DNA from: Amphiscolops sp. MND2022 | Lineage: Eukaryota | Reading direction: 5' to 3' | DNA length: 64,000 bases | Assembly: GCA_964187785.1 (NCBI GenBank) | Contig: OZ076409.1 | Location: 36,272,001-36,336,000, forward strand | Shown: positions 4,224-29,905 of the stretch, in pieces | Numbering within the stretch: position 1 is the stretch's first letter | Layout of the letters: the number at the start of each line of letters is the position of its first letter | The notes under the pieces: generated by a model | Seen by the model: the letters and a program-made list of their open reading frames with translations, nothing else | What the model was told of the DNA's origin: nothing | The model's database searches: none | Program-made: the position numbers and the translations under genes

Positions 4224-4411
4224 TGTAGTGGAGGTCAAAGTTTGTAAAATGTGCACGAATTAATGCTAGCATTAATGAGGTACCTGTCAAAATACATTAT
4301 TAAGAAGAATCAGTTGAGCAAAAGACTGAATTAGCTGCAAAACGTACTGCAGCAATTCAACATTCAATTCATCATTCTTTTTTACTGGGTTAATCCCAGT
4401 TGCACATAACA
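4224..4411 (+). repeat. 3' LTR (188 bp) of decayed Gypsy
   Basis: TGTAGT...ATAACA, downstream of the PPT; distal part repeats window positions 1-87. Confidence 0.9.
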
Positions 4412-6456: not shown

Positions 6457-7055
6457 ATCTTGGTTGGATCAAGGATCTTAGAGGTCCCTCCAAAATTTTG
6501 CGTGGATCAGCGACCTTGAAGATGCCTCGAAGATCTTTGTTGGGTCAGTGATCTCGAAGATCCCCCAAGATATCAATTGCATCAGTGATCTCGAAGATCC
6601 ATCCAAGGTCTTGGTTGGATCAATGATCTCGGAGATCCCTACAAGATCTTGGTGATATCAGTGATCTCTGGAACCTCCTCGAAGATATTGATTGGATCAG
6701 TGATCTCGGAGATCCTTCAAAGATCTTGGTTGTATCCATGATCACGGAGATCTTTTAAAGACCTTGGCTGTATTCGTGATATCGGAGCCTCGTCCAAAAT
6801 ATTGGTTGGATCAGTGATCTAGGAGATCTCTCCAAGATCCTGGTGGTGTCAGTGATCTCGGGAACTCCTCGAAAATCTTGCTTGGATCAGTGATCTCGGA
6901 GATCCTTCAAAGATCTTGGTTGTATCCGTGATCCCGCAGATCCTTGATAGACCTCAGTTGTATCTGTGATCTCGGATCTCCTTCCAAGATCATGGTTGGA
7001 TCAGTGATCTCGGAGATTTCTTCAGAATCTTGGTTTTGGAGCAGTGATCTAGAGG
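6457..7055. repeat. ~38-bp GATC-rich minisatellite, about 15-16 diverged units, 190-bp higher-order repeat
   Basis: Consensus about GATCTTGGTTGGATCAGTGATCTCGGAGATCCTTCAAA; an identical 46-bp block recurs at 6692 and 6882. Confidence 0.9.
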
Positions 7056-7289
7056 GTTCCTCTGCACAAAGATTTTTTTCGGTAGCTTTTTTTCGGGAAT
7101 AGACGACCAGAAGGAGCGTTGATTTTCCGTAGAATATACCTTAAGACAATATCAGTGTAAGACAACATCAAAGATTTAAAACAAACAGTTACGAATGAAT
7201 TTACATTGAATTAAGTTTCAAATCAACATTTTTTGTTCAAAGTTTTTTCTTCGCTGGCGGTTTTCTTGATCCGAGTGGAGTTTTTGACA

Positions 7290-8669: not shown

Positions 8670-10148
8670 TCATATGTAGGATTTTTGACTTTTCGCTCAT
8701 GTTATGGTGTTTATTAAATTTTAGTTCATCAGCAAGGTAGATTTTACGGGGTGATATCGTATAAAAGTAAAGATTACAATAAGTACCTCAAGTACCTCAC
8801 ACTATTGTTTAATGTCAATAATATTGTCTTTAGTCTCGCGGACTACTAAAAGAACCATTCTTAGCTGCTATGAAGCGACCGCGCAACGTACTAATGCAGT
8901 GAGACGGCCGCCACCACTCAGACCTATGTAACAAAATTCTATTCGGAACGAAACTTTAACATTGAATTTCTCAATACCTATTGCGAATATAAGAAAAATT
9001 AAACCACCAAAATGTTCCTTTCTGACCTGAGTACGTGTTGAGTAAACATTTAGGAACTTTTCAGTAACGAATTTCCACAGAAAAAGCATTAGAAGTCATA
9101 AAATACTGTGAATAGAAATTTAGTCAAATTACTATGTTAATACATGTGTTTGAGGGTATGCGAGAGTGAAACTTCACAGTACGCGGTATAAGCATTGAAT
9201 GCAACTCAGCTAAGCGTGGCAGAAAGCGAAAGGAATGAAAATTAGAACGCGCTGTGAGTGGCTGTACGCGTAGCTAATAAGAAAACGGCCGCCGCACACT
9301 TTGAATTAATCCCCCCTCTTGATAGAAATTAAAAATCAAAACCCGATTTCTCAAAGATGAAAAAAGATAGCAACAAACGGTTTTCAGCATTCGAAAGCCC
9401 ATCCAAAGGAAAGCTTAAGTTGAGGATATGAGCGTTGTGCGACCCCGGGAACATATCGGGGGGAAGCTTAGAAAATAAGTGCATTGAAAATTTTGACGAT
9501 TTTCCAAAATTGAGTTTCCTTTAAAAATTTTGTGTGATCGCTACAGTTGTCAGAAAATGTTCGGATATGGCTTAAATTAAAGATAAATGAATGCCCTAAC
9601 TTGTGTTAATTGGAAAATAAATAATAATCAGTACTTTTTGAGAACTGAGCCAGCAAACGTTAAAAACAGCCCTAAAATGGCCTAAAAAGCCGTTTTTCGC
9701 ATGTTATCGCTTAGTACTCAACGTGTAAGCGCACAATAGCCGCCCCCTTCACAGCGTACTTGAGAATTGAAGTGGAGGAGTGAATAGAATAATAAATAGA
9801 GTGCTGCGGTGCGCTAGCGAAGAACCCCCAAGAATTTAAAGTTGTGATTTCTTTCAGCCGATAGGGATGTCGACCTACCAAAATGCGAACCCCCCCCCCG
9901 CACGTTTTGGGCGATATCGAGCTGAAACTTTCAGGGTAGACGCACAAGACCCAGGCGCACAGCGTTTAGCAGAAGCGTTTTTCCGAAAAATGCCCTGGTT
10001 TCAAGATATTGGCCTCCAAAGTTGAAAGTCCAGACATAAAAATCGGGAAAATGACTACTTTCAGAAAAAGTACTATCAAATTTTGTTGAGAAAAGATAGA
10101 GACCTCATCTAAAGTGCAAAATACTCCTAATGGCTTGGGCTAACGATG

Positions 10149-10156
10149 TATATAAG
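10149..10156 (+). promoter_or_regulatory. Candidate LTR TATA box (TATATAAG)
   Basis: Present in both LTRs and conserved (ATGTATATAA) in the diverged solo LTR near 26260 on the minus strand. Motif-only call. Confidence 0.3.
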
Positions 10157-11085
10157 CCCCCAGCCTGTATCTTTCAAATTGACTGAGTACTAGCACTCCA
10201 AAGTTGAGATTTGCGTGAAAACCGATGGGTGATTTTTGACTACCACACTTTAAAGGCGTTTTTCACTGTGAAGGAGTTGAAATAGAAAGAAAACCATGGA
10301 GTAAGCTTTTGTAGCCCACGAATTGTACTTTCAAATGATGTACTTGGTTTTTGCCCTCCCTCATCGAAACACCTTGTTTTTGCCCTTAGAAGTTGTAACA
10401 CGAAAATCGACTTTTTTTGATATGAATTAAAATCGCCTTTTAGGTCATTGTAAACTGTAGAAAATTATTTCCTTCAGCCAGATTTAGCTGGAGAGAGTTG
10501 TCAGGAACCGCGTGAGAAAAAGAGACCTGGCAAAAAGTGCAAATGTCAATCAGTAAGCCGAAGTTCAAGTCGTGCTTACAAAAGTGGGAAACACTGAGTC
10601 AGTAGCACCACCCCTTAAATTCTATTGAAAACGAAGTAAAACCATCAGTCATGATTGACAAGGAGGTGGAACTAGGACCGACTCGTGTTGAGAAAATGTA
10701 CTTCTAATGAACTTTCAGTACCGAAGTAGGAAAAAAACTGTATTGCTCAACACTTAGTCAGAACCCGAAAAAGGAAAGATGATAAACTATGAATAATGAT
10801 ATGACTAAACTGCCGAAAAAGTAACTTAGGCCGAAGTGTGCGCCATTTTAGCGACACACAAAGTGAGTTGAAATCTAGAGAGCGGTTTGCTGCTTTGCGT
10901 CCGATAGCATCCCGCATCAGACGCCGGACTATCGAAATTGCAGATTTACTTCGTCTGGCCGGTTAGCCCGTGCCTTCAGCCTAACAACCTGAAGTTGCCT
11001 GATTTGTTGCTACCCCGCTTTTCGCTAGTGCGGATTTCGACCCGGGAGTAGGGTGGACTGCTGGTCTATCGTATTACATGTAAAA

Positions 11086-11289
11086 GAGCCTAAGTGGGCT
11101 GATAATACACGGTTGAGCCTAAGTGGGCTGATAATACACGGTTGAGCCTAAGTGGGCTGATAATACACGGTTGAGCCTAAGTGGGCTGATAATACACGGT
11201 TTAAGCCTAAGTGGGCTGATAATACACGGTTTAAGCCTAAGTGGGCTGATAATACACGGTTTAAGCCTAAGTGGGCTGATAATACACGG
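11086..11289 (+). repeat. LTR-internal tandem array, 7 units (4 of the 29-bp type + 3 of the 30-bp type)
   Basis: Units GAGCCTAAGTGGGCTGATAATACACGGTT and TAAGCCTAAGTGGGCTGATAATACACGGTT. Confidence 0.97.
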
Positions 11290-11868
11290 ATTGTTGTTTT
11301 CACTCCAAGACCGATAGAGATTTTGCGGCGAGTTGATTCTTCCGATATCTTCGATATCACCCCCATCCTTACGGATACAAAAACTTAACCTTGCTGAAAT
11401 TCTTGTGTACTGTTCTCTTGTGTTATATGCCTCCTAATATGCCTCCTAATATACTCAGTAATATTCTCCGCTATTATCGATGTTATCATATTATTCATTC
11501 TATTATTCGTGGATGTGAAATTGTATTTGTGTCTATTACTCGACTTATTTATTTGATGTATAGTAATTAAAGTTCAACCTGCTTCTTTTCATCAGCGAAA
11601 AGATAATTTCAAACAGTCCAAGAGTAGCGAGACAAACCCCTGAAAGAGGGAAAAATAGCAAAGTTGTAAAGATCGTGATTTCCTTGTCACACTTACCCCC
11701 ACCGCTTTTCGATTAAGTTGATTCGTCTCTTCTTCGGAGTTAATAAAAATTTATGTAGATACTCAGCCAGTCCTTGTCTCGTGCATGGTACCTACGGGTT
11801 TAATTGAGTTGTAGTGGAGCTATTCTCAACAAATAGTTAAAGCTACTGGAAAACTAAAAATCTTACAT

Positions 11869-11887
11869 TGGCGCTCCTGGGTGGGCT
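11869..11887 (+). promoter_or_regulatory. Primer-binding site, tRNA-Asn type
   Basis: TGGCGCTCCTGGGTGGGCT one base after the LTR. Its reverse complement AGCCCACCCAGGAGCGCCA resembles the 3' end of metazoan tRNA-Asn(GUU) as I recall it (AGCCCACCCAGGGACG-CCA). Confidence 0.8.
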
Positions 11888-11979
11888 TTCTTTGCGTCTT
11901 TGTTATTTCCTCTTTCTTTGCTTACTTCTTTCCCATACCTTCCCTTCACCCCTTGTGAGTTGCTGAACCCTTCTTGACG

Positions 11980-13374
11980 ATGTCTGGAGACGACGACAAC
12001 GATCAGCAGATTTCCCCCGTCACCCAAGAAGATTCCAACGGCACCCATACTCCCGTCACAGGTGGTAGTAAACCACTTCTCAGTAAGTCCACTAAACTTT
12101 CCTTCGTAGGATTGGCCGACAAGGAAAAGGAGTGTAAACGAGATGCTTATCGGCGATTGAAAGAGATGGAAAAAAAAATAAAAAGATTCAAAATTGAAGC
12201 AGACTTAGATTCGGACGACTCCATGGTCCTTGAAAATGAATTTAGAAAGAGACAAAAACCCCTGTACGAAAAATCGCCAAAAAAACCAGAAAAGTTCCCC
12301 GGCAAAGATTACAACCGCTGGGAAAATTGGGTAAAACACTTCAAAGCAGTTGCCAAAGCCAATGGGTGGAATGATAGTCAAAAAATTGCTGCAATACCTA
12401 CTTGTTTAACATCTTGGGCTATTGAAGAATTTGAAACTGTCCCCAAAAGATATATTGAAAAAGAACCCGGTTCTTACCCCCCACGTTTTGATGAACTCCT
12501 TGAAATTTTGAAACCCAAAATGCAGCAATATCGCAGCCAGCGAGCTACGCGGTCGGAATTTAAAGCAGTTAAACAGTGGGAAAATGAAGACCTAAGAGAC
12601 TACTCGAGAAGAGTACGTCAACTCGCTGATATAGCCTTTCCTGAAAAATCGCTCCGGGAAAGAGAACGCGATATGAGAGATCAATTTATTGAAGGGCTTT
12701 TTGATTCGCGAATACAACTTAGTTTGTATGAAGACGAGCGTGACCGTGATTTCGGGGAAACTTTGCAACGAGCACAGGAACTCGAAATAATCCACAAGAC
12801 TCATGAATCAAAAAGAGAGCGGAAACTTGATAAATTGCGCTATTCGTATGACGAATATGAGGATCCCGATCTAGTGAGAGCTGGCTATTCGAGTAACAAC
12901 CAAATCGAAGAAAAATTTGCCGCCCTTCAAACATCTTTAACCAATGTGGCAAGTCGCTTTGATCGATTTGAAAATTCCATCTGTCAGCAAATATCCAAGC
13001 AAACCGATCAAATAACGAAAAACTTAGAACAAAGTTCCTCGAAACAAGTCGAAATAATGACCAGACAAAACGAAATCCTAATGCAGGGTATGAAAGACAT
13101 GTCATCTGCGATCGTAGGAGCGTTAGGAAGTTCGCAAAGGCAGGTTGGTGGGCAGCCTCAGAGTTGGCAACCTCCCCGTTTTCAAGCCCCTTTCAATCCT
13201 AGTTATCGTGCGCCTCTAAATAGGGCAGGATCGTCGGGTCAGCTGAATGTTTCGCACCCTCCCCCCGAAGAAGCGGAATGTTTTAATTGTAAGGCGATAG
13301 GTCACTACGCTAAGCAATGTCCAAGTCTTCCGCAGTCTAATTCTTTAAACTACCGACAGCCGAGTATGCAGTAG
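11980..13374 (+). CDS. gag: Gag polyprotein (464 aa from ATG 11980) with CCHC zinc knuckle
   Basis: Uninterrupted ORF; PEKFPG..WENWVKHF..A.ANGW capsid-type motif, DQFIEGL, and CFNCKAIGHYAKQC. Confidence 0.93.
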   Translation: MSGDDDNDQQISPVTQEDSNGTHTPVTGGSKPLLSKSTKLSFVGLADKEKECKRDAYRRLKEMEKKIKRFKIEADLDSDDSMVLENEFRKRQKPLYEKSPKKPEKFPGKDYNRWENWVKHFKAVAKANGWNDSQKIAAIPTCLTSWAIEEFETVPKRYIEKEPGSYPPRFDELLEILKPKMQQYRSQRATRSEFKAVKQWENEDLRDYSRRVRQLADIAFPEKSLRERERDMRDQFIEGLFDSRIQLSLYEDERDRDFGETLQRAQELEIIHKTHESKRERKLDKLRYSYDEYEDPDLVRAGYSSNNQIEEKFAALQTSLTNVASRFDRFENSICQQISKQTDQITKNLEQSSSKQVEIMTRQNEILMQGMKDMSSAIVGALGSSQRQVGGQPQSWQPPRFQAPFNPSYRAPLNRAGSSGQLNVSHPPPEEAECFNCKAIGHYAKQCPSLPQSNSLNYRQPSMQ

Positions 13375-13391
13375 CAGGTTCTACTCGCGCT
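13344..13391 (+). promoter_or_regulatory. Programmed -1 ribosomal frameshift signal (T TTA AAC plus downstream stem)
   Basis: Heptamer at 13344-13350 is in the correct X XXY YYZ phase of gag; 7-nt spacer; stem AGCCGAGTA...TACTCG(C)GCT; the -1 frame is open from 13350 into the protease. Confidence 0.85.
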
Positions 13392-14216
13392 TGGGATTCC
13401 ATCCCTTCCCCAGCTGCTACAAATTTTCCGCAAACAAGTCAGCGTGTTCGTTCTTGGTCTAGGAGTAACGATAGCCATTTGCGACAGCGCAATCGCAGTA
13501 GGCGGATCGACCCCGAAACTTGGAAACAAATGTGTGATGAGTTTGGCCCGGGAGGTTTTTTCCCAAAAGAATCCCATAACCCTGTTGTAAATAGTCCCCC
13601 CATACAAAATCGTTTTAAGAATAAACAAGCTGAGCCTGGCTCTGTGAACATTTTGTCCAAGAAAGAGCCCGAATTTCCAAATCAGGCCCGGTCTGATGAG
13701 GTAAAATCGAGAAAACTGACCCATAGTCAATACATTCCAGGGGCCACGCTTTTAATCCCCTATGAAGTAGAAAGCCTACGGTGTTGGGCCATGATAGACA
13801 CTGGTGCGAGTAGAAGTTTGATGAGTTTGGAATTGGCTAAGACTATTGGTAACCCAATAGCCCCCAATCCCAGTCGTTTAACAGGCCCAATAGCCAACGA
13901 GATGCCTACCAAAGGTATCGTAAAAGCAGAAGTTAAAATCGGAACGTGCGTTGCTTCCGATGAATTCGTGGTTGTAGAAGATCTCTACCCTGAGATCATG
14001 ATTGGCTTAAAGTTCATGATGGAAAATCAATGCTCGACTGACTTAGTCGAACAGAAACTAACGATCCCCAAAGATGATGGTTTCATCATCAAAGTACCCA
14101 TGCAAGTCCTAAGCGGTCATGTTCCCCCGCCGGAAGATGACGCATTTGTTTGCGAAACGGTACCCGGTCCTGACAGCGGCCTCCGAAATAAACGAAAAAC
14201 TCGAACAAGAAGTTGA
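13350..14216 (+). CDS. Aspartic protease region (reached by -1 frameshift from gag)
   Basis: AMIDTGASRS active site and IMIGLKFM motif; stop-free from 13350 to the TGA at 14214-14216. Confidence 0.9.
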   Translation, partial: LPTAEYAVAGSTRAWDSIPSPAATNFPQTSQRVRSWSRSNDSHLRQRNRSRRIDPETWKQMCDEFGPGGFFPKESHNPVVNSPPIQNRFKNKQAEPGSVNILSKKEPEFPNQARSDEVKSRKLTHSQYIPGATLLIPYEVESLRCWAMIDTGASRSLMSLELAKTIGNPIAPNPSRLTGPIANEMPTKGIVKAEVKIGTCVASDEFVVVEDLYPEIMIGLKFMMENQCSTDLVEQKLTIPKDDGFIIKVPMQVLSGHVPPPEDDAFVCETVPGPDSGLRNKRKTRTRS

Positions 14217-17200
14217 CGAAATTTTAAATTTAGCCACCCCTGGACTCGAGAACGCCGAAATAAAGGAAAAATTGCGAGATTTGATTCGTGATTACAGAGA
14301 TGTGTTTTCACTGCCTTCAGACCCGTTAGGAACCGCTGTAGGAGTAGAACACCGCATAGACATAGGCGATGCGAAACCGTTCAAAATTTCGCCCTACAAA
14401 ATTGCTCCGCATAAATTAGAAGCCGTTCGTGAAGAAATTCGCGAGATGCTTGAGAAAGGAGTGATCGTACCGAGTAAAAGTCCTTTCAGCAGTCCCATAG
14501 TAATGGTACCTAAGAAAGATGGCTCAAACCGAATGTGTATAGATTATCGAAAGTTGAACGACCTTACCGTGAAGGACGCGTATCCGTTGCCCCGGATCGG
14601 TCAAACGATTGATGCACTGCAAGGGGCGGGAGTCTTCTCGTCTCTCGATTTAGCAAGTGGCTATTGGCAGATTCCAGTCGCGGCCGAAGACCGGCACAAA
14701 ACGGCGTTTTGCACTCCGGATGGAGGATTATATGAGTGCTTGAAAATGCCGTTTGGCTTAACGAACGCCCCGCCAACTTTCCAAAGGAACATGAACGACA
14801 TTTTTAAAGAAGATCTATATAAACATGTGCTCATATTCCTAGATGATGTGCTAACGTTTAGCAAAACTCCAGAAGAACATTTGGAGCATTTAGAAAAGGT
14901 GTTTATAGTTTTGCGCAAAGCCGGTTTACGTCTTAAACCGAAGAAATGCAACTTATTCCGCACCGAGGTCCACTATCTAGGTCATGTGATTAACAAGGAA
15001 GGGATCCAACCGGATCCGAAAAAGTTAGCGGCAGTACGCGAATGGGAGCCTCCGACCGACGTCACCGGAGTTCGCTCATTTGTTGCCTTCTGCAACTATT
15101 ATCGGAAGTTTGTCCAAAATTTCGCGGAAGTAGCTAGGCCACTTTATTTGTTGACGAGCAAAGGATTAAAATTCACATGGACCGAAGAACATGACAAGGC
15201 GTTCCGAACGCTGAAGAAAAGATTGTTAGAAGCTCCAATTTTGGCATTTCCAAATTTTGAACTTCCGTTCATTATTGATACCGATGCTAGTGATACGGCG
15301 CTCGGCGCAGTTTTGTCGCAAGTGATCGATGGGATAGAGTATCCAATTGCCTTTGAGTCGCGAGTTCTAACTAAAACGGAGGTAAATTATGCAACAACCA
15401 AAAGAGAAGCGCTTGGTGTAGTTCAAGCCGTCCAGTGGTTCAGACCGTACATTTACGGATCCAAATGCATTATCCGCACGGATCATGCAAGTCTTCAATG
15501 GTTGTTTAGGCAAAATGCGGATGGAATGACTTTTCGAATGGTTCAGAAACTTCAGGAGTATGACTATCAAATAGTACATCGTCCAGGTGATAAACATTGC
15601 AATGCGGACGGTCTTAGTCGACGACCGAATGACGTACCCCAATGGCTCCCCGGCGAAGAAGATGCGTTAAGAGGACCGATTCCCGAATTCACCGAATTTG
15701 ATAGTGCTTTGTTTGAAGCCGAACGCGATCTTCGAGCCGCCCGAACCAAAGCCCGTGAGAAATTGGAAAACTCAGAGGATGTAGCTCGGCATTTGAAAAT
15801 GCAAATTTCTCACCCACCTAGAGAGGTAGTCCGTTATCGAGAAGGGGATTTTTTTGAATCCCTCGATTCCTTAGTTTTGTGTGTATCTGCCGACATGAGA
15901 GTAGCCACTGCTCCCATGAAATCGTTCGTAAAAAAGTATTCCCATTTACCACCTCTCGCAGAGTCGGTAGATCGTGTTGGAGGCTTTCTAGTGTACCGAG
16001 ATGTTGAAAAAGGACGTTATGTGTACATATTGATCTCCAAGCATTGTAAAGGAGAAGTTGCTAAATACGATGTACTAAAAGAAAGTCTATTGAGAGTGAA
16101 AGAACATGCTAGTTCCCATGGAATTTCCAAACTTGCAATGCCTAGAATAGGTTGCGTCGATGACGAATTGGAGTGGGTAAATGTAGCTATTTGTCTAGAG
16201 GTTGTGTTTCAAGATTCGTATTTTCCGATCTCCGTGTATACGCCGAGAGACCAAGAGCAATTGTACCCTTCGACTTCGGCAAGACGAGGTACCCCGCGTT
16301 CATCAAGTGTAGATTCCGCCTGTTCCGTCGTTACCCCTGAAGAAATGTTAGTATCAGAGCAAGTGGGGGGGCATATCTCATGGACTAGATCAGATAGCGA
16401 CCTAGCGTATGGTCAGAGAATGGATCGTAGTACGGGATTACTATTTCGTGAAATGGTTAGACGTGGAATTCGGATAGATGGTACATTGGAAGATTTAGGG
16501 CCCAACCCCATCCCCAGAGAAGTAGCATTAGGATGGAGTTGTCCAGAAGCGTTAGAACTTTGGAGTAATTGGGATCAGCTAGCGCTGGCCAATCGAGTCC
16601 TTTATCGAAAATGGAAACCTAGCAATCGTGAACGTGAAATATGGCAGGCAGTAGTTCCTTCGACTATGAGAGCCGAAGTGTTACATCAGTTACATGACTC
16701 CCCTCTTAGCGGAGGTCATTTTGCAGCCGAGAAAACGTTATCAAGGATTAAACAGAGATTTTGGTGGCCTGGTCTCAGGTCAAGTGTAGAAAAGTATATT
16801 GCAAAATGCACGCGTTGCGCGGCTAGATCAACGGCGGGAAAAAGTCGAAAAGCTCATTTGCAAACAATCGAAGCAAAGGCGCCGTTTCGTATTGTTGCAG
16901 CAGATATCTTGGGACCCGTAACGCTGGCGAAAAAGTCACAGGCGCGATACATTTTAGTCATATCGGATTTGTATACAAAGTATGCGGTTGCCGTTCCTTT
17001 GAAAGACATGACGGCTAAGACGGTGGCCACGACTTTAGTCGATGAATGGATTTTGAAATTTGGGGCTCCCGATACTTTACATACGGATCAAGGAACTAAC
17101 TTCAACAGCGAAGTAATGAAAGATATTTGCCAAGTTTTCATGATCGATAAAACTAGGACTTCTCCGTATCATCCCCAAGGAAATGGTCAAGTAGAAAGAT

Positions 17201-18171
17201 TCAATAGAGTCATTGCCGATACTATCTCTAAGTATTGTGCCGAAAAACCACAAGAATGGGATCTCTACTTACCCCACGTCAATTTTGTGTACAATACCAC
17301 CGTACATAAGACCCTCGGTACGACCCCGTTTTCGATGTTGTACGGGAGAGAAGCACAATATCCGATCGACTTATTCTATCCGAAACCTCCTGGCGACCCC
17401 CGTTTAGAATTAGGCGAGGTAGGAGCCGAGTTGAGTGATAAACTATTCGAAGTACATAGTCATGCGCAACTGACTATGGGGAAAGAACAACGTCGTCAGA
17501 AGGATTATTATCAGAAAAAAGTCCATGGAGAAAGTTTTAAAATAGGAGACCGAGTGTGGTTATTCGAGCAACACAAAGCGAAATCCCGAAAGTTCCATCT
17601 CCCTTGGCACGGTCCATACGAAGTATTGAGTCAGACCAGTGAAGTGAACTATCAGATTTGCAAGCCAGGTTGCCCGGAAAAGTGGCAAAATATCCATTTT
17701 AATCGTCTTAAACCGTATCTTGGCGAATCCCTCCCGAAACGATCCGAACGAGTGGCGACAAAAACGCTTCCGAGTTATGAAGAAGTCGCAGATGAATCCG
17801 ATTCATCCGATCAAGAAACCGAAAATAGACCGTATCATGTTTTCCGCCCTACTTCGGCGGAAATCCAAGCCAATAGAAACCGGCCGCACGAGTCGTTCGA
17901 CGACAGTCCCCGCGTGATAAGCGCCGAAAATGATGAAGAGGATTCTCTGATTAATTGTCCCTTGTATATAGACGTCCCCGAACCATCAGAGAGATCCTCG
18001 TTTCCCGTTTATGAAGAAATACCCGAGAGTAGAAATACTCCGCCCCCTCCAGATGAGGAAGACAGCGAAAGTGACCGATCAGATTCGCTGATAATAGAAA
18101 CGACACGGAGTCGTCGACCGCCAGTACGCTTTGGCATAGACGAGTACGTGGTAAAGCCAAAAGAACATTAA
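14119..18171 (+). CDS. pol: Pol: reverse transcriptase, RNase H, TARG1-like macrodomain, integrase
   Basis: 1350-aa ORF with RMCIDYRKLN, LDLASGYWQ, MPFGL, FLDD; RNase H DTDAS, REAL, TDH; integrase H-H-C-C, DILGP, TDQG, VERFN and GPY. Confidence 0.97.
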   Translation: MFPRRKMTHLFAKRYPVLTAASEINEKLEQEVDEILNLATPGLENAEIKEKLRDLIRDYRDVFSLPSDPLGTAVGVEHRIDIGDAKPFKISPYKIAPHKLEAVREEIREMLEKGVIVPSKSPFSSPIVMVPKKDGSNRMCIDYRKLNDLTVKDAYPLPRIGQTIDALQGAGVFSSLDLASGYWQIPVAAEDRHKTAFCTPDGGLYECLKMPFGLTNAPPTFQRNMNDIFKEDLYKHVLIFLDDVLTFSKTPEEHLEHLEKVFIVLRKAGLRLKPKKCNLFRTEVHYLGHVINKEGIQPDPKKLAAVREWEPPTDVTGVRSFVAFCNYYRKFVQNFAEVARPLYLLTSKGLKFTWTEEHDKAFRTLKKRLLEAPILAFPNFELPFIIDTDASDTALGAVLSQVIDGIEYPIAFESRVLTKTEVNYATTKREALGVVQAVQWFRPYIYGSKCIIRTDHASLQWLFRQNADGMTFRMVQKLQEYDYQIVHRPGDKHCNADGLSRRPNDVPQWLPGEEDALRGPIPEFTEFDSALFEAERDLRAARTKAREKLENSEDVARHLKMQISHPPREVVRYREGDFFESLDSLVLCVSADMRVATAPMKSFVKKYSHLPPLAESVDRVGGFLVYRDVEKGRYVYILISKHCKGEVAKYDVLKESLLRVKEHASSHGISKLAMPRIGCVDDELEWVNVAICLEVVFQDSYFPISVYTPRDQEQLYPSTSARRGTPRSSSVDSACSVVTPEEMLVSEQVGGHISWTRSDSDLAYGQRMDRSTGLLFREMVRRGIRIDGTLEDLGPNPIPREVALGWSCPEALELWSNWDQLALANRVLYRKWKPSNREREIWQAVVPSTMRAEVLHQLHDSPLSGGHFAAEKTLSRIKQRFWWPGLRSSVEKYIAKCTRCAARSTAGKSRKAHLQTIEAKAPFRIVAADILGPVTLAKKSQARYILVISDLYTKYAVAVPLKDMTAKTVATTLVDEWILKFGAPDTLHTDQGTNFNSEVMKDICQVFMIDKTRTSPYHPQGNGQVERFNRVIADTISKYCAEKPQEWDLYLPHVNFVYNTTVHKTLGTTPFSMLYGREAQYPIDLFYPKPPGDPRLELGEVGAELSDKLFEVHSHAQLTMGKEQRRQKDYYQKKVHGESFKIGDRVWLFEQHKAKSRKFHLPWHGPYEVLSQTSEVNYQICKPGCPEKWQNIHFNRLKPYLGESLPKRSERVATKTLPSYEEVADESDSSDQETENRPYHVFRPTSAEIQANRNRPHESFDDSPRVISAENDEEDSLINCPLYIDVPEPSERSSFPVYEEIPESRNTPPPPDEEDSESDRSDSLIIETTRSRRPPVRFGIDEYVVKPKEH
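15826..16242 (+). other. Macrodomain, TARG1/OARD1 (Poa1p-like) class, embedded in Pol
   Basis: Y.EGDFF..DSL..C.S.D, GRYVYILISK, Y..L..SL...KEH....G...L.MPRIGC..D.L.W.NV....VF.....I.VY; collinear with human TARG1/OARD1 as recalled. Confidence 0.9.
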
Positions 18172-19700
18172 TGTCTTCGGGTGATGGTCAGGTGAGTTGA
18201 ATCATCCGAAGTAGTGAAGCTCATCATTCGTTCAGCCGTTCGCGAGCACGACTAATTGAATTAACTGAAAGCTCAGACCGTCAATCATGAGGTGATGAGT
18301 TGGAAAAGTAGTGTCATCCGTGTCGCTACCGGCTCTCCTTCATTTAGTTTTGCCTTAACCTAATTACCTCAGTCACTATAATTGAAAAATTGTAGTAATC
18401 GCCCCTACAATCAATTCGAATGACTTTAAAAAATTATTACCGTATTTAACCTCTATGTATCTGTGTTTCGTGTTGTCGGAAAATTTTTTTTCCATGCTTG
18501 AATAATTCGACTCGCTAGTATAGTCGAAAGATAATGTAAATGTAGTATTTGTGTTGACGTAATCGGGTACCTGCGTGAAAAGGAAGAACTCGTTTGGAAC
18601 CAGCGTTGAGGATTGTTCGCCTAGGTTCGCGCGAAGGACCTTTCGTAACTACGAAATCGTAGAAATGACATGTCAAAACAATATCGCCAACAAAGTCTCG
18701 GTATGTTATCTGAAGAAGATCCAGAAGAGAGACTATCCCCCCTTCCTGAAAATATTCGAGTTCCAGTCGTATACAGTTTCAGACACGAAAGATTTGCTAA
18801 GGGGGATTGCAAGTTTATTCCGTTGTACTGACTCTGCAACCTGCCTGAGGTAAATTCAGCGAAGTAGTTTGCTTCTCCACGACTACTATTCAGAAAAGTG
18901 AAAGTATTCATCTTCAGTAATGTATCACAATTTTGGGGGGTCTTAATATTGTTTGGGATGTTATATATGCCGACCGAAAGAACAACCAACAACTTGGCTG
19001 ATCTCGGAGAGAGAAGTGTGTTTCGACTTCAGCAACGTTGCGGTTCAACACTCCCCTTGTCAACAAGACGACAATGTGTCCTGAGATGATCCGAATGTTA
19101 ATTTTGGGTGGATGAAGCCTATCAGCGCTAGTACAGAACCCTACACGTGAGATGAACCTTTTCACAATGATAAATTGTACCCAGAATAAATCCACGCACC
19201 TTAAGACCCCCCTGTATTTATTTGCCCTAAAGAAAGGCTCAAAAACTATATTTTCCTCGCTTGGACAGAAAATTGAAATAATTAAATAAATAATAAATTC
19301 TAGGGAATAAACTAAGAAATCCAGTCTGTAAGAATGTGAATTACAAAAAAAAGATAGAGAAATGGTTCTTTTTAACAAACAACCCTTTATTTTCCAAAAT
19401 CTTAAATTGGATTGAAAAAGAGGAAAATTTTGAGAAAGAATGAAAATTTTTCATGGATGTAATGTATTTTAAAGAAAAGAGTGATTTCGTATTTAAGTAG
19501 GAGGATTGTTAATAGAGTGTGAAGTGATTTTTATATTGTTATCATTGTATTTCAAGCACTTGTTTACAAAATAAAAGAGATTAAGTTGATGAAACAAGGC
19601 TACATTACAACCTGACTGGACTACGAATTGACGAATAAGAACGCTCCTACTAAGGGAATAAAATTTAAATAAACCAACTACTCAGGAGAGTAGTAGTCCA

Positions 19701-19712
19701 AGTGGGGGGGAA
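19701..19712 (+). promoter_or_regulatory. Polypurine tract
   Basis: AGTGGGGGGGAA directly before the 3' LTR; preceded by hairpin ACTACTC-AGGA-GAGTAGT (19677-19694). Confidence 0.9.
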
Positions 19713-22700
19713 TGTAGGATTTTTGACTTTTCGCTCATGTTTTGGTGTTTATTAAATTTTAGTTCATCAGCAAGGTAGATTTTACGGGGTGATATCGTAT
19801 AAAAGTAAAGATTACAATAAGTACCTCAAGTACCTCACACTATTGTTTAATGTCAATAATATTGTCTTTAGTCTCGCGGACTACTAAAAGAACCATTCTT
19901 AGCTGCTATGAAGCGACCGCGCAACGTACTAATGCAGTGAGACGGCCGCCACCACTCAGACCTATGTAACAAAATTCTATTCGGAACGAAACTTTAACAT
20001 TGAATTTCTCAATACCTATTGCGAATATAAGAAAAATTAAACCACCAAAATGTTCCTTCCTGACCTGACTACGTGTTGAGTAAACATTTAGGAACTTTTC
20101 AGTAACGAATTTCCACAGAAAAAGCATTAGAAGTCATAAAATACTGTGAATAGAAATTTAGTCAAATTACTATGTTAATACATGTGTTTGAGGGTATGCG
20201 AGAGTGAAACTTCACAGTACGCGGTATAAGCATTGAATGCAACTCAGCTAAGCGTGGCAGAAAGCGAAAGGAATGAAAATTAGAACGCGCTGTGAGTGGC
20301 TGTACGCGTAGCTAATAAGAAAACGGCCGCCGCACACTTTGAATTAATCCCCCCTCTTGATAGAAATTAAAAATCAAAACTCGATTTCTCACAGATGAAA
20401 AAAGATAGCAACAAACGGTTTTCAGCATTCGAAAGCCCATCCAAAGGAAAGTTTAAGTTGAGAATATGAGCGTTGTGCGACCCCGGGAACATATCGGGGG
20501 GAAGCTTAGAAAATAAGTGCATTGAAAATTTTGACGATTTTCCAAAATTGAGTTTCCTTTAAAAATTTCGTGTGATCGCTACAGTTGTCAGAAAATGTTC
20601 GGATATAGCTTAAATTAAAGATAAATGAATGCCCTAACTTGTGTTAATTGGAAAATAAATAATAATCAGTAGTTTTTGAGAACTGAGCCAGCAAACGTTA
20701 AAAACAGCCCTAAAATGGCCTAAAAAGCCGTTTTTCGCATGTTATCGCTTAGTACTCAACGTGTAAGCGCACAATAGCCGCCCCCTTCACAGCGTACTTG
20801 AGAATTGAAGTGGAGGAGTGAATAGAATAATAAATAGAGTGCTGCGGTGCGCTAGCGAAGAACCCCCAAGAATTTAAAGTTGTGATTTCTTTCAGCCGAT
20901 AGGGATGTCGACCTACCAAAATGCGAACCCCCTCGCACGTTTTGGGCGATATCGAGCTGAAACTTTCAGGGTAGACGCACAAGACCCAGGCGCACAGCGT
21001 TTAGCAGAAGCGTTTTTCCGAAAAATGCCCTGGTTTCGAGATATTGGCCTCCAAAGTTGAAAGTCCAGACATAAAAATCGGGAAAATGACTACTTTCAGA
21101 AAAAGTACTATCAAATTTTGTTGAGAAAAGATAGAGACCTCATCTAAAGTGCAAAATACTCCTAATGGCTTGGGCTAACGATGTATATAAGCCCCCAGCC
21201 TGTATCTTTCAAATTGACTGAGTACTAGCACTCCAAAGTTGAGATTTGCGTGAAAACCGATGGGTGATTTTTGACTACCACACTTTAAAGGCGTTTTTCA
21301 CTGTGAAGGAGTTGAAATAGAAAGAAAACTATGGAGTAAACTTTTGTAGCCCACGATTTGTACTTTCAACTTATGTACTTGGTTTTTGCCCCCCGTGATC
21401 GAAACACCTTGTTTTTGCCCTTAGAATTTGTAACACGAAAATCGACTTTTTTTGATATGAATTAAAATCGCCTTTTAGGTCATTGTAAATTGTAGAAAAT
21501 TATTTCCTTCAGCCAGATTTAGCTGGAGAGAGTTGTCAGGAACCGCATGAGAAAAAGAGACCTGGCAAAAAGTGCAAATGTCAATCAGTAAGCCGAAGTT
21601 CAAGTCGTGCTTACAAAAGTGGGAAACACTGAGTCAGTAGCACCACCCCTTAAATTCTATTGAAAACGAAGTAAAACCATCAGTCATGATTGACAAGGAG
21701 GTGGAACTAGGACCGACTCGTGTTGAGAAAATGTACTTCTAATGAACTTTCAGTACCGAAGTAGGAAAAAAACTGTATTGCTCAACACTTAGTCAGAACC
21801 CGAAAAAGGAAAGATGATAAACTATGAATAATGATATGACTAAACTGCCGAAAAAGTAACTTAGGCCGAAGTGTGCTCCATTTTAGCGACACACAAAGTG
21901 AGTTGAAATCTAGAGAGCGGTTTGCTGCTTTGCGTCCGATAGCATCCCGCATCAGACGCCGGACTATCGAAATTGCAGATTTACTTCGTCTGGCCGGTTA
22001 GCCCGTGCCTTCAGCCTAACAACCTGAAGTTGCCTGATTTGTTGCTACCCCGCTTTTCGCTAGTACGGATTTCGACCCGGGAGTAGGGTGGACTGCTGGT
22101 CTATCGTATTACATGTAAAAGAGCCTAAGTGGGCTGATAATACACGGTTGAGCCTAAGTGGGCTGATAATACACGGTTGAGCCTAAGTGGGCTGATAATA
22201 CACGGTTGAGCCTAAGTGGGCTGATAATACACGGTTTAAGCCTAAGTGGGCTGATAATACACGGTTTAAGCCTAAATGGGCTGATAATACACGGTTTAAG
22301 CCTAAGTGGGCTGATAATACACGGTTTAAGCCTAAGTGGGCTGATAATACACGGATTGTTGTTTTCACTCCAAGACCGATAGAGATTTTGCGGCGAGTTG
22401 ATTCTTCCGATATCTTCGATATCACCCCCATCCTTACGGATACAAAAACTTAACCTTGCTGAAATTCTTGTGTACTGTTCTCTTGTGTTATATGCCTCCT
22501 AATATGCCTCCTAATATACTCAGTAATATTCTCCGCTATTATCGATGTTATCATATTATTCATTCTATTATTCGTGGATGTGAAATTGTATTTGTGTCTA
22601 ATACTCGACTTATTTATTTGATGTATAGTAATTAAAGTTCAACCTGCTTCTTTTCATCAGCGAAAAGATAATTTCAAACAGTCCAAGAGTAGCGAGACAA

Positions 22701-22931
22701 ACCCCTGAAAGAGGGAAAAATAGCAAAGTTGTAAAGATCGTGATTTCCTTGTCACACTTACCCCCACCGCCTTCGATTAAGTTGATTCGTCTCTTCTTCG
22801 GAGTTAATAAAAATTTATGTAGATACTCAGCCAGTCCTTGTCTCGTGCATGGTACCTACGGGTTTAATTGAGTTGTAGTGGAGCTATTCTCAACAAATAG
22901 TTAAAGCTACTGGAAAACTAAAAATCTTACA
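19713..22931 (+). repeat. 3' LTR (3219 bp)
   Basis: Repeat of 8675-11867; the +26 bp length difference is accounted for by +30 (extra tandem unit), -3 (C run) and -1. Confidence 0.97.
22121..22354 (+). repeat. LTR-internal tandem array, 8 units (4 of the 29-bp type + 4 of the 30-bp type)
   Basis: Same units as 11086-11289, with one extra 30-bp unit and one G>A variant (TAAATGGG). Confidence 0.97.
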
Positions 22932-24007
22932 TCATATGTTGTGAAGATATCCGAGTGTCGTTCTTTGCTCTTGTAAGTTCCCTTTTTGATTCGCTCAAGT
23001 AGAATAGCAAGAATTACGAAAAAAAGTGTTCTGAAGAGGTTGAAATCTTTTATAAAAACGTTCACTTTGAAAACACTATCCTTTGGTTGAAGGCTATTCA
23101 CAAATTTTCATTTTATTGACAGTCAGCCCAGTCGAGCAGGTAAGACTGTTATATTCAAAATCTTAATCTTGGTTTGCTCAAAGTCTTGAACTTCTTTTAC
23201 ATATAAGATTGTCGATGCTTATAATGCGGTTACATCAAGCAGTTAAAGAAATTCAACTGAAAACACAGTTTTATCTTAAAAATGATGAACTTACTTTGTT
23301 TAGAATTAATGCTCTTCATTGGGTGAAAAAAAGCGTTTCCACATTTCTGAAACTGAAGAAGATAAAAATTAATTAGACCCTTCACAAACAAGCGATTAGA
23401 TAATGAACAACAACCAGTTATCGACAGTAGTTTAAAAGGACTCAAGTTCAGGAGTTCTAGAAAAACTGAATGTCGTAAATTTGTTCATCCATGTTCATCA
23501 TGGTCGCGCTTGTCTCTCAAAAAAATAAGCCGTAGGCGCTAAGGTGCTTATATCTATCATAGAATAGGAGAAGAAGGCTTCAGAGTTGAATATATTCTGA
23601 AAATGTTCCAACTTACGAAAAGAGTACGAAAAATAGATCACGCCATGAACATATGGGGACCTAAGGTTTTCTTGTTCCGCTTGGCTTGAGTGAAAATGTG
23701 ACTGTGGCTGCTTCTTCGTTAAAAAATCTTGAAATTAACAATAAAATGCATTTGTATAATTTGTTTTTCATCTGAAGTATTTTTAATCTCGGGAATTGAT
23801 GATAGAAGAGTTAAAATTAGTTTCATTTCCTGTGGAGACATGCTTCAAGTTTTTTTTTCGTAATTCTAAGATTTTTGATGGAGTCATGTGACAGATTGAA
23901 ATTTGTCAGAAGGTTATATAGCTAAAGTATCTGCCTACGTACTATAAACGTATTCATGGTCTAGAACATTTGTCATTGTTACATTTACGAATCCAGCGAG
24001 CAGAATA

Positions 24008-24775: not shown

Positions 24776-27703
24776 TTTTAGATTTTTGGTTTTCAGTAGC
24801 TTTAACTATTGGTTGAGAATAGCTCCACTACAACTCAATTAAACCCGCACGATACCATGCACGATTCAAGGAAAGGCTGAGTATCTACATAAAATTTTAT
24901 TACCTTCGAAAAAAAAGAAGAATCAACACGATCGAATACGGTGGGGACAAGTGCGACAAGGAAATCACGTATCTTTTACAACTTCGAATATAAGCCTTCT
25001 TCAAGGGCTTTGTATCATTACTTTTGAGTTGTTGAAACTTTTTTTCAGAATGAAAAGAGCAGTTTGAAAGTCAATTTATACACAATAATACTATAGGACG
25101 ATTAAAAGACACACACAAATTCACATCCACAAATAATAGAATGAATACAACGATATTATCTGAGGATAAAACGGATTATAATAGGAAGGCATATAACACA
25201 AGAAATCAAAAAACAAGGCTTGCAGTAAGGTTGATTTGTTGAGGTAAAATTGGTGAGATATCGAAATACGCAACTCTTGCGCAAGTTCTCTCTATCGAAC
25301 TTGGACTGAAAGCAATTAGTGGACTCAGGGCCATTAAACCGTATTACATGTAGAGACGATAGACCAAATGTCCACTCTGCTGCCGGGTCAAAATTCGTAT
25401 CAAGGAGTGGCGGATCGGCGATCTGTCAGGCAACTTCTAGCAGAACGCTCGGGCGCCACTGCAAACAAAAAATCTGCATTTTGATAATCCGGTGCCTGAT
25501 GCGGAACGTATTCACTCCGTAAAAACTGCAAATCGTCTTTCGGAGATTGACTATCTTGGTGTGTTTTCGTAATAGCGCACACTTCGGTCAAAGTTAGTTC
25601 TTTGGCAGTTTAGTCACTGAGGTTTTCGTAATTTGTCATCATTCCTTTTTTGGGCCTGACTAATTGCTGAGTGATATATGTTTCCTACTTCGGTACTAAA
25701 GGTTCATCAGAAGTACATTTTCTCATCCTTAGTCAGTCCTGGTTCCACCTTCTTGTCAATCATGACTAGTGGTTTTACTCCGTTTTCAAAAGAATTTACG
25801 TGGAGGTGTTACTGAGTCAGTATTTCCCACTTTTGCAAACAAGACTTACACTTCGGCTCAATGGTTGACTTTTGCCCTTATTGTCATGTCCTTTTTTCCC
25901 ACACAGCTCCCGATAACTCTTTTTTGCAAAATATGGCTAAAGGTAATGATTCCCAACAAAATTACAATGACCTAAAAAGCAATTATGTTTCACATCCCAA
26001 AAAGTGGATTTTCGAGTTACACCATCTCAGTGCAAAACCTAAGCGTTTCAACCACTGGGAGCTGAAACCAAATACACCATACAAACGGAAATTTGAAAAG
26101 TTACAAAAACGTTCCTCGTCGGGACCTTTCTATTCCAACTCCTTTACGGTGAAAAACGACCTTGAAGTGTAGTTGTCAAAAATCATGTATCGACATTTGC
26201 AAAAATCTCAACTTTGGAGGGATTGAATTCGTTCATATTGAAAGGTACAGCGTGGACGATTATATACATGGATAGCCCGAGCTATAAGGAGTAATTTGCA
26301 CTTTAGATAAGGTCTACATCTTTTCTCAAAAGTTGGTGGCATTTTTGTCTGAAAACAATCAATTTTCAGATTTTGACCTGACCTTCAACTTTAGAGGTCA
26401 ATATCTCAAAATCAGGTCACTTTTAATAAAAAACGCTCCCGCTTGTGCGTTAACATACCATACCGTTGTGCGTCTTTCCTGAAATTTTTAGCTCGATATC
26501 GCCCAAAACCTGCAGCGGAGGTGTTAGCATTTTGACAGGTGGATTTCAGTTTTATCACAATGACTTCTCAACTTCCAGTTCTTGGAGGTTTTTCGCTAGC
26601 GCTCCGCAGCGCTCAATTTACTTCTTCATTCACTCATCCACTTCAATTCTCAAGTATGCTGCAAGGGGTACCTATTGTGAGCTTAGACGTTGAGTACTAG
26701 GTAACAATTTGCGAGAAACGGCTATTTTGACCTATTTTAGCCCATTTGTTATCGTTTGCTGGCTCAAATTTCAAAAAGTGCTGAATAATATCTATTTCCA
26801 ATTGACACAATTTGAAAAATTCATTTGACTTTAATATTAAGTTTATCCAATCTTTTTTTGACGGTTGTAGCGATTATACGAATTTTTTAAACGAAATTTT
26901 TCTGAATAATTCAAGAAATTCGTCAAACGTTTAATATTCAAAGCCTCCCCGGGCCAACTTTTCATTGTCGCACAAGGCTAATAGCTTCAACTTAAGCTTG
27001 TTGATATATTTTTCCTTCTTCGAGAAATCGGGTTTTGATTTTCATTTTTGATTAAGGAGGGGGATAATTCCAAAGTGTGCGGCCGCCGTTTTCTTATTAG
27101 CTGTCCGTACATCCACACACAGCGCGTTCTCAATTTCATTCCTTCCGCTTTCTAACACACTTTGACGAGTTTCATTGTATGCTTATACCTCTCACTGTGA
27201 AGTTTCACTCTCGCATACCCTCAAACAATCGTATTACCGTAGCTATTTGACTAATTTTCCGTTCACTGTGAAAACTTAACTTCTGGTTCCATTCCTGTGG
27301 TATCCAATCCTGAAAAGTTCTTTACTGTTTACTCAAAACGTAGTCAAGTCAAATAGGAACATTCGTTCGATTCAATTCTTCTTACATTAGCAATAGGTAT
27401 CGAGAAGTTCGATGTCAACGTTTTTTTCTTAGTAAAATTTTCATTCATAGTTTTATGTGGTGGTGGCGACGGCCGTATTGCATTAATACCTTGCGCGGTC
27501 GCTTCATAACAGCTAAGAATGGTTATTTTGATTGTCAGGGGGACTGAAGACAATATTTTTGACAATAAACAATATGGCGAGGTGCTTGAAGTACTTACTG
27601 TTATAATTACTTTCATACATATCACACCCGAATAGTCTATCTTGCTGAAGGTGTAAGATTTAATAAACATCATAACATGAGCAAAAAAGTGAAAATCCTT
27701 ACA
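24776..27703 (-). mobile_element. Diverged solo LTR (~2.9 kb) of the same family as the 8675-22931 element, inverted
   Basis: Collinear reverse-complement similarity to the whole LTR from end to end (e.g. AATAGCTCCACTACAACTCAATTAAACCCG; GCCGTTTTCTTATTAGCT; ...AAAATCCTTACA); no internal domain adjacent; no TSD recognised. Confidence 0.92.
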
Positions 27704-29866: not shown

Positions 29867-29905
29867 TATTTCGCCCCCCAAAAAGGGTTTAGACGATAAT
29901 TGTTA

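What the first reader, a model, noticed from the sequence alone, without database searches (positions are those of the whole stretch)
15826..16242. Gypsy Pol carries an in-frame TARG1/OARD1-type macrodomain between RNase H and integrase
Seen: about 139 aa (VVRYREGDFF...DSLVLCVSAD...GRYVYILISK...LAMPRIGCVDDELEWVNV...ISVYT) sit in the open Pol frame after the RNase H end (NADGLSRRP) and before the integrase HHCC finger, flanked by linkers. Established: this motif pattern is that of TARG1/OARD1 (related to DarG). These enzymes remove ADP-ribose from acidic residues and from modified nucleic acids. The canonical Gypsy Pol lacks the domain, while coronaviruses and alphaviruses use macrodomains against PARP-based immunity. 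Inference: a recently active retrotransposon has captured an ADP-ribose eraser or reader. It could counter host PARP/ADP-ribosylation defence, or tether the integration complex to ADP-ribosylated chromatin, as chromodomains target chromoviruses. I recall sporadic macrodomains in other retroelements, so novelty must be checked.
Basis: partly seen in the sequence, partly recalled or inferred. Interest (0 to 1): 0.92.

Follow-up and report, generated by a model that had tools for sequence, protein, structure and literature searches.

The report
Retrotransposon carries a disarmed TARG1 macrodomain
A recently active Gypsy retrotransposon carries, inside its polymerase, a captured copy of the host ADP-ribose-removing enzyme TARG1 whose binding pocket looks disabled but which selection still keeps, while other retrotransposon families in the same genome and in insects carry intact copies, which suggests that these elements take up this enzyme repeatedly.

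Summary
Bases 15826-16242 encode a TARG1/OARD1-type macrodomain in the open Pol frame between RNase H and integrase: human TARG1 E=1e-20; model pLDDT 93, Foldseek TM 0.85. It is a ~200-residue insertion absent from the next-closest Gypsy relatives. At least 150 near-identical copies exist, under purifying selection.

The eraser/reader reading is doubtful for this element. Catalytic K84 and D125 are kept, but across the lineage the pocket has lost G43, G123, H32 and P91, the adenine-binding D20 varies freely, and the TARG1 signature fails in 30 of 30 copies. One relative carries G43E, which abolishes binding in human TARG1. Best reading: a pseudo-macrodomain kept for a non-catalytic role.

The wider pattern is the stronger result. 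Four other families in this genome carry signature-intact TARG1 domains in three positions, including a Gag-protease-macro element without RT or integrase in which the macrodomain is the most conserved part. Weevil, ladybird and sawfly Gypsy Pols have it too, and three such Pols hold a second, decayed copy. Eight literature searches found macrodomains only in fish retroviruses. The scan's earlier notes held nothing similar. No function was tested.

The parts
8670..8674 (+). Left target-site duplication TCATA
   Evidence: Same 5 bases at 22932-22936
8675..11867 (+). 5' LTR (about 3.2 kb, TG...CA, with a 29-nt tandem array at about 11086-11290)
   Evidence: 27 mismatches in 3191 aligned bases against the 3' LTR
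11869..11886 (+). Primer-binding site (TGG-start; likeness to a tRNA-Asn 3' end is recalled, not tested)
11980..13374 (+). gag with C-terminal CCHC zinc knuckle
   Evidence: PF00098 E 1.6e-5
13344..13350 (+). TTTAAAC slippery heptamer in the gag/protease overlap; probable -1 frameshift site (inferred)
13341..14216 (+). Protease frame (aspartic protease about 13758-14015); in this copy out of frame with RT
14113..18171 (+). Open Pol frame, 1352 aa: RT, RNase H, macrodomain, integrase
14506..14991 (+). Reverse transcriptase domain
   Evidence: PF00078 E 1.4e-35
15178..15627 (+). RNase H domain, to the ADGLSR motif
   Evidence: PF17919, PF17917; end motif
15826..16242 (+). TARG1/OARD1-type macrodomain with altered pocket (human numbering: H32L at 15877, G43A 15910, I44P 15913, K84 kept 16039, P91A 16060, G123V 16156, L124D 16159, D125 kept 16162)
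16321..16341 (+). Conserved C-x-V/A-x-T/S-P-E motif; candidate protease site between macrodomain and integrase (inferred)
16654..17715 (+). Integrase: zinc finger, catalytic core, C-terminal domain
   Evidence: PF17921, PF00665, PF22938
18563..18853 (+). 96-codon open frame of unknown kind in the 3' region, shared with sister copies L065 and L072
   Evidence: no Pfam hit
19700..19712 (+). Polypurine tract
19713..22931 (+). 3' LTR
22932..22936 (+). Right target-site duplication TCATA

Best explanation
The domain is a TARG1-derived pseudo-macrodomain. SHOWN: an ancestor of this Gypsy lineage gained about 200 residues, including a TARG1 fold, between RNase H and the integrase N-terminal extension. 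The lineage has kept it at constant length while synonymous sites saturated. The residues that clamp ADP-ribose were replaced and a new set of lineage-specific residues became fixed. INFERRED: it is made as part of Gag-Pol by a -1 frameshift and packaged in the particle. It is cut from integrase at the motif at 16321-16341, so it stays on the RT-RNase H end or is released. It no longer binds or removes ADP-ribose. It is kept as a folded, non-catalytic module, most likely a protein-contact surface within Pol or the particle, or for a host protein. The original capture was probably favoured as an ADP-ribose eraser, the state still seen in other families of this genome. Odds: pocket dead about 0.8; protein-contact role, given that, about 0.55.
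For: Pocket: G43, K84, P91 and G123 are 54 of 54 and H32 53 of 54 among canonical homologues. In 7 lineage members G43 reads A/A/A/L/E/S/S, G123 V or I, H32 L/I/F, P91 A, and D20 D/D/H/E/I/N/N. The pattern TKx(30,35)Px[IL]GxGxD (PMC6397177) is met by 49 of 54 canonical hits and by families B-E and the host-like gene, but by 0 of 30 copies and 0 of 7 lineage members tested. G43E, I44E and G123E lose ADP-ribose binding and catalysis in human TARG1 (PMC5928194), and P0009 has G43E naturally. The phosphate loop has turned acidic (GCVDDE) and net charge is -1 against a canonical median of +4. Retention: shared variants among 30 copies are 24 synonymous to 9 non-synonymous (pN/pS 0.11). Against sister family A2, synonymous sites are saturated yet the domain is 60% identical, with dN 0.32 against 0.56 in the C-linker and tail. 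17 of the 52 positions invariant in five divergent members are residues rare in canonical TARG1s. Insertion: spacer 335-347 aa in 7 relatives at 66% or more RT-RH identity, 133-154 aa in 11 relatives at 58-64%.
Against: K84 is kept in 5 of 7 and D125 in 6 of 7 members, along with C33, P118 and G121, so residual or altered catalysis is not excluded. The human mutants were to glutamate, whereas this copy has Ala, Pro and Val. The domain is no better conserved than the N-linker and the pre-integrase region (dN 0.32 against 0.37 and 0.38). In window-versus-sister counts its ratio (0.20) is above the linkers' (0.06-0.10; the window's own changes are counted seven times there). So simple folding constraint could explain much of the signal. 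The 30 copies were picked by similarity in this domain, which biases pN down. No binding partner is identified, the cleavage site is inferred from motif likeness only, and no expression data were obtained.
Confidence: 0.55

Rival explanations
1. Passenger. The domain lost its function long ago and persists because a clean deletion is rare and a misfolded insert would poison Pol. Selection acts only on folding.
For: Constraint is close to that of the flanking spacer. A second, far more decayed macrodomain in three other Gypsy Pols shows that such inserts can drift. P0193 has an internal deletion in the domain.
Against: No indel in 139 aa across 7 members despite saturated synonymous sites. 17 new invariant residues, including the YSHL and NVAxC stretches. 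P0193 looks like a decayed copy.
Confidence: 0.18
2. Active ADP-ribose eraser or reader. It removes or binds host PARP marks on Pol, RNA or cDNA, or tethers integration.
For: TARG1 fold with K84 and D125 kept. The host has 32 PARP-domain matches. Families B, C, D and E keep the full signature, and in family C the domain is the most conserved part (dN/dS 0.12-0.16 against Gag 0.25). ADP-ribosylation takes part in L1 silencing (PMC4695847, passage).
Against: Both pocket glycines, H32, I44 and P91 are replaced and D20 is free to vary in this lineage. The phosphate loop is acidic. A candidate protease site separates the domain from integrase.
Confidence: 0.1
3. Re-tooled enzyme. The K84/D125 pair still acts, but on a smaller or different substrate (for example a modified sugar at a nucleic-acid end) that does not need the adenine and diphosphate sites.
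For: The distal-ribose and catalytic side (C33, S35, T83, K84, D125) is kept better than the adenine and diphosphate side (D20, G43, I44, G123) (roles from PMC6397177).
Against: The apparently intact sister family A2 has Arg at K84 and P0009 has Val at T83. A K84-D125 salt bridge could be kept for structure alone (inference).
Confidence: 0.08
4. RNA or cDNA binding module that helps reverse transcription or packaging, using the pocket-independent RNA binding described for TARG1.
For: TARG1 G123E and G43E still bind RNA (PMC5928194). The domain probably stays next to RNase H.
Against: That binding was ascribed to basic surface patches. Net charge in the lineage is -4 to +3 (window -1) against a canonical median of +4.
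Confidence: 0.09

Closest known systems
Human TARG1/OARD1/C6orf130 (PDB 4J5Q, 4J5R, 4J5S, 2L8R)
   Same: Fold (TM 0.85), about 35% identity, K84 and D125
   Different: Here embedded in Pol; G43, I44, G123, H32 and P91 replaced; signature pattern not met
Macro-domain-carrying fish epsilon-like endogenous retroviruses (Basta et al. 2009, PMC2748043)
   Same: An LTR retroelement that captured a macrodomain. Seen only as one sentence in the review PMC4977317.
   Different: Retroviridae, not Gypsy. I could not read the paper, so the macrodomain class and position there are unchecked.
Unnamed Gypsy Pols of Rhynchophorus (XP_076269006), Harmonia (LOC123684075) and Athalia (LOC125501328)
   Same: Same order RNase H - TARG1-type macrodomain - integrase
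   Different: Other RT lineages (shown by tree for the weevil protein); pocket motifs intact or nearly so; annotated only as uncharacterized proteins
RNase H-integrase 'bridge' domains of envelope-carrying Ty3/Gypsy elements (PMC13524379)
   Same: Extra folded domains at the same place in Pol, some restricted to small clades (section 7)
   Different: Described as pseudo-RNase H, mini and 'pseudo' 2/3 domains; the string 'macro' occurs 0 times in the main text. Figures and supplements not seen, so whether a 'pseudo' domain there is a decayed macrodomain is open.
Viral macrodomains with recurrent loss of activity (PMC10221186)
   Same: A macrodomain kept after loss of catalytic residues in a host-parasite setting (title, abstract start and two passages seen)
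   Different: No mention of TARG1 or transposons in the main text (0 hits each)
Chromoviruses and other domain-capturing retrotransposons
   Same: A host domain fused into Pol (passages)
   Different: A chromodomain sits at the C-terminus of Pol and reads chromatin; this domain lies upstream of integrase and is probably cut from it

Membership tests
TARG1/OARD1 macrodomain class (structural) | Macrodomain fold closest to TARG1 | tested here: met
   hhalign probability 99.9% against 54 canonical hits
Active TARG1 glycohydrolase | Catalytic Lys84 and Asp125 | tested here: met
   K at 16039 and D at 16162; K in 5 of 7 and D in 6 of 7 lineage members
Active TARG1 glycohydrolase | Signature TKx(30,35)Px[IL]GxGxD with the GxG phosphate loop (PMC6397177) | tested here: not met
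   0 of 30 copies and 0 of 7 lineage members tested; 49 of 54 canonical hits meet it
Active TARG1 glycohydrolase | Loop 1 and adenine-site residues D20, H32, G43, I44 | tested here: not met
   H32L, G43A, I44P in the window; D20 kept here but variable across the lineage
Active TARG1 glycohydrolase | ADP-ribose binding and removal in vitro | not testable with these tools
   Needs a bench assay
Ty3/Gypsy LTR retrotransposon | LTRs, target duplication, PBS, PPT; order PR-RT-RH-IN | tested here: met
Chromovirus-like integrase tether | Reader domain stays on mature integrase, at its C-terminus | tested here: not met
   The domain is N-terminal to integrase; a candidate cleavage motif lies between them (cleavage itself untested)
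Envelope-carrying Gypsy (errantivirus-like) | env ORF after pol | tested here: inconclusive
   Absent in the window copy. An env-like frame (hydrophobic N-terminus, RxxR motif) follows pol in L066 and L061-L063, with no confirming Pfam hit.
Neutral passenger insert | pN/pS near 1, frequent indels or loss | tested here: not met
   pN/pS 0.11 for shared variants and 0.20 pairwise; constant length

The most novel reading that the evidence does not exclude
Gypsy retrotransposons are in a recurring conflict with host ADP-ribosylation and answer it by repeatedly capturing or swapping TARG1. Intact copies erase ADP-ribose from retroelement RNA, cDNA or proteins inside the particle. Elements that encode only Gag, protease and the macrodomain deliver the eraser in trans. 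Older captures turn into fixed structural or decoy domains of the RNase H-integrase bridge. The window's domain is the middle stage of that cycle, and some unexplained 'pseudo' bridge domains of insect Gypsy elements are its end stage.
Probability: 0.3. Interest if true: 0.87.

Novelty: new variant of a known kind. Interest (0 to 1): 0.62.

Why it matters
Macrodomains are established counter-defence enzymes of RNA viruses, but whether LTR retrotransposons face ADP-ribosylation defence is largely open. One genome with intact and pocket-altered TARG1 domains in six Gypsy families, at three Pol positions, gives a natural series that can be assayed as isolated domains. It makes the question directly testable and offers a clear case of an enzyme turning into a pseudo-enzyme inside a mobile element.

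Tried and rejected
Pfam alone was inconclusive for the domain (E 0.03). The ESM Atlas gave generic Macro clusters for the window domain (0.93-0.95) and only a lead (0.80) for the decayed insect domain.

RNA runs: no RNA holder was listed, which is no evidence either way. A complex prediction of the macrodomain with RNase H and integrase gave no verdict, so contacts within Pol are untested.

The AlphaFold model of P0305 was too poor to use (mean pLDDT 42.6; the second domain mostly under 60). Its secondary-structure order matches a macrodomain but is suggestive only.

The macrodomain tree (76 rows, 159 columns, 39 of 73 inner branches open) could not name a donor or count captures. The single-copy host-like gene L031 is in no starred set, and one origin for 15 related macrodomains is not rejected (p-AU 0.73; the constrained tree scored higher than the free one). 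I therefore dropped the claim of independent captures within this genome; swapping between elements fits equally well.

The first RT tree was distorted by the long branch P0149 and was redone with 37 of 122 rows, leaving out P0149, P0202, P0132, P0192 and many redundant rows.

Papers not held: Basta 2009 and Sharifi 2013. Repbase, GyDB, Dfam and CDD could not be searched. Earlier scan notes held nothing relevant. ARAGORN found no tRNA in the window.

Full report
OBSERVATION. The 139 residues quoted lie at 15826-16242, residues 572-710 of the open frame 14113-18171, between RNase H and the integrase zinc finger. Pfam gives only a sub-threshold Macro hit (E 0.03), but phmmer against PDB sequences aligns the whole domain to human TARG1 at E 1e-20. 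The AlphaFold2 model has pLDDT 92.8 and Foldseek ranks eight TARG1 entries first (best E 7e-14, TM 0.85), ahead of DarG and Poa1p. The model's alignment consisted mostly of TARG1-like proteins, so the sequence hit is the independent evidence.

THE ELEMENT. It is a complete Gypsy insertion, 8675-22931, with 3.2-kb LTRs that differ at 27 of 3191 aligned bases, a TCATA target duplication, a primer-binding site and a polypurine tract. gag and the protease frame overlap at a TTTAAAC heptamer, a likely -1 frameshift site (inference). This copy has a frame break between protease and RT. In the 1.07-Gb eukaryotic genome all 150 scored matches (of 998 candidates) are 91-100% identical over the domain, 8 of 150 have a stop inside it, and 14 of the top 30 lie in 1609-1610-aa frames. 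One sister copy (L066) and family A2 (L061-L063) have an env-like frame after pol; the window copy does not.

IT IS AN INSERTION, INHERITED IN ONE LINEAGE. Of 112 further RT relatives, 5 hit a macrodomain profile. Seven relatives at 66% or more RT-RH identity have a 335-347-aa spacer with the domain; eleven at 58-64% have 133-154 aa without it. The spacer alignment shows one block of about 200 residues inserted between the helix after RNase H and the integrase N-terminal extension. Within the lineage the domain tree and the RT tree agree in grouping the window with P0005 and P0007, and P0009 with P0188. A motif C-x-V/A-x-T/S-P-E downstream of the domain is conserved, sits at about the distance from the integrase extension where macro-less relatives have similar motifs, and resembles the element's own protease/RT junction. 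I infer that the domain is cut from integrase; this was not tested.

THE POCKET IS ALTERED. I took residue roles from passages of PMC6397177 and mapped them through the alignment. In 54 canonical homologues G43, K84, P91 and G123 are invariant and H32 is 53 of 54. In the window and six divergent lineage members, G123 is Val or Ile, G43 is Ala, Leu, Glu or Ser, H32 is Leu, Ile or Phe, P91 is Ala, I44 is Pro or Ala, L124 is acidic, and the adenine-binding D20 takes five states. K84 is kept in 5 of 7 and D125 in 6 of 7 (P0189 may be a decayed copy). The published TARG1 pattern fails in 30 of 30 copies and in all 7 lineage members tested, while 49 of 54 canonical hits meet it. Passages of PMC5928194 report that G43E, I44E and G123E lose ADP-ribose binding and catalysis but keep RNA binding, ascribed to basic patches. 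The window domain has net charge -1 against a canonical median of +4.

IT IS STILL SELECTED, MODERATELY. Among 30 copies, shared variants in the domain are 24 synonymous to 9 non-synonymous (pN/pS 0.11; RT 0, integrase 0.07, linkers 0.08 and 0.25); singletons give 0.69. These copies were chosen by similarity in this domain. Seven copies chosen with a whole-Pol query give 0.20 against the window (RT 0.00, linkers 0.06-0.10, tail 0.28), with the window's own changes counted each time. Against A2, synonymous sites are saturated, the domain is 60% identical with no indel, and dN is 0.32, against 0.07 in RT, 0.37 in the N-linker, 0.38 in the pre-integrase region and 0.56 in the C-linker and tail. 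Of 52 positions invariant in five divergent members, 22 are the canonical residue and 17 are residues rare in canonical TARG1s. So the domain is not neutral, but it is not much more constrained than its flanks.

THE WIDER PATTERN. A search of the genome with frog OARD1 gave, among the 30 loci fetched of 150 matches, one single-copy intronless host-like gene (L031; single copy by DNA search), 12 copies of family B (RT-RH-macro-IN) and 17 of family C (Gag-protease-macro). Two further loci gave family D (RH-macro-IN) and family E (protease-macro-RT). All four families and L031 meet the TARG1 pattern. The one family C copy followed further has no RT or integrase within 5.7 kb downstream, and in three pairwise comparisons its macrodomain has dN/dS 0.12-0.16, below Gag (0.25-0.26) and the linker (0.43-0.70). 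The RT-RH of the window's lineage and of B/D are not one clade (p-AU 0.001; 37 rows), so the domain reached the same slot more than once, by capture or by swapping; the domain tree cannot tell which. The genome has 32 PARP-domain matches (exons and tandem domains are counted apart, so not a gene count). Elsewhere, 5 of 53 long hits scanned (of 150 listed) are Gypsy-type Pols with the domain between RNase H and integrase (2) or after integrase (3, one followed by a Tpt1/KptA domain). A second search gave 7 more integrase-bearing proteins among 14 hits, 6 of 7 meeting the pattern, including Harmonia and Athalia proteins. Three of them carry a second, decayed macrodomain just before the integrase zinc finger (hhalign 94%, E 1e-7 for their joint profile; 61-92% singly; 17 control spacers under 3%). 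Their likeness to the 412/mdg1 group is recalled, not tested.

HOW IT MOST LIKELY WORKS. Shown: capture, inheritance, loss of pocket residues, continued constraint. Inferred: synthesis in Gag-Pol, packaging, separation from integrase, loss of ADP-ribose binding, and retention as a non-catalytic contact module (0.55 overall). Rivals: a folding-constrained passenger (0.18), an active eraser or reader (0.10), an RNA-binding module (0.09), a re-tooled enzyme (0.08).

WHAT IS KNOWN. Eight full-text searches for macrodomains in retroelements turned up one direct statement: fish epsilon-like endogenous retroviruses sometimes encode macro domain proteins (PMC4977317, passage, citing Basta 2009, which was not held). 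A survey of envelope-carrying Gypsy elements describes several unexplained bridge domains between RNase H and integrase and does not use the word macro in its main text (PMC13524379; passages and section 7); its figures and supplements were not seen and may bear on novelty. PMC10221186 (listing and two passages), PMC12440569 (one passage), PMC4695847 and bioRxiv 10.1101/2021.11.30.470311 (passages) gave no account of TARG1 in Gypsy Pol in what I saw. The library lacks most subscription journals, and Repbase, GyDB and Dfam were not searchable. The architecture is already present, unnamed, in NCBI protein records.

VERDICT. A real feature and a new variant of a known kind (host-domain capture by LTR retroelements). 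It works like a pseudo-macrodomain, belongs to the TARG1 structural class, and fails the membership test for an active TARG1. Interest 0.62, carried mainly by the recurrent-capture pattern and the testable series of intact and altered domains.

Noticed in passing
L051 + L075, L037, L043-L060 (family C): Multi-copy element encoding only Gag-protease-macrodomain; no RT or integrase within 5.7 kb downstream in the one copy followed. Its intact macrodomain is the most conserved part.
   Followed up: partly
L073:872-3499 (family E): Gypsy-like Pol with an intact TARG1-type domain between protease and RT, in frames of about 1853 aa.
   Followed up: partly
P0299, P0304, P0305: Gypsy Pols (two from named insects) with an intact TARG1 domain after RNase H and a second, decayed macrodomain just before the integrase zinc finger; a candidate identity for unexplained 'pseudo' bridge domains.
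   Followed up: partly
P0149: Gypsy-like Pol ending in a TARG1-type macrodomain followed by a Tpt1/KptA domain, i.e. a possible ADP-ribose eraser next to a possible writer.
   Followed up: no
P0200, P0201, P0204: Next-closest relatives: P0200 has a differently decayed macrodomain in the same slot; P0201 has a decayed one before the protease and a GDSL/SGNH domain after integrase.
   Followed up: partly
L066 and L061-L063, after pol: env-like open frame (hydrophobic N-terminus, RxxR motif, no confirming Pfam hit). The window copy, L065 and L072 have a different 3' region with a 96-codon frame.
   Followed up: partly
L031:1498-2442 (-): Single-copy intronless host-like TARG1 with about 170 unexplained N-terminal residues.
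   Followed up: partly
G000, several contigs: 32 PARP-domain matches, many in single open frames of 900-2100 aa.
   Followed up: no
P0035, P0116, P0039, P0118, P0153: TARG1-type domains fused to DNA ligase/BRCT proteins, to a NADAR domain, to a divergent RT, and inside an RNA-virus-like polyprotein.
   Followed up: no
window 24780-27703 (-): Apparent solo LTR of a related family, 76-81% identical to the element's LTRs, about 1.8 kb downstream.
   Followed up: no
window 1-4411: Decayed LTR element with a Gag-like frame (64-918), an integrase-like piece (3119-3583) and repeated ends (1-87, 4326-4411).
   Followed up: no
window 29444-37198 (-): Decayed element with about 85% identical end repeats and frames that look BEL/Pao-like (label recalled).
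   Followed up: no
window 6458-7072; 47841-48040: 38-nt tandem array; a 200-base run of N.
   Followed up: no
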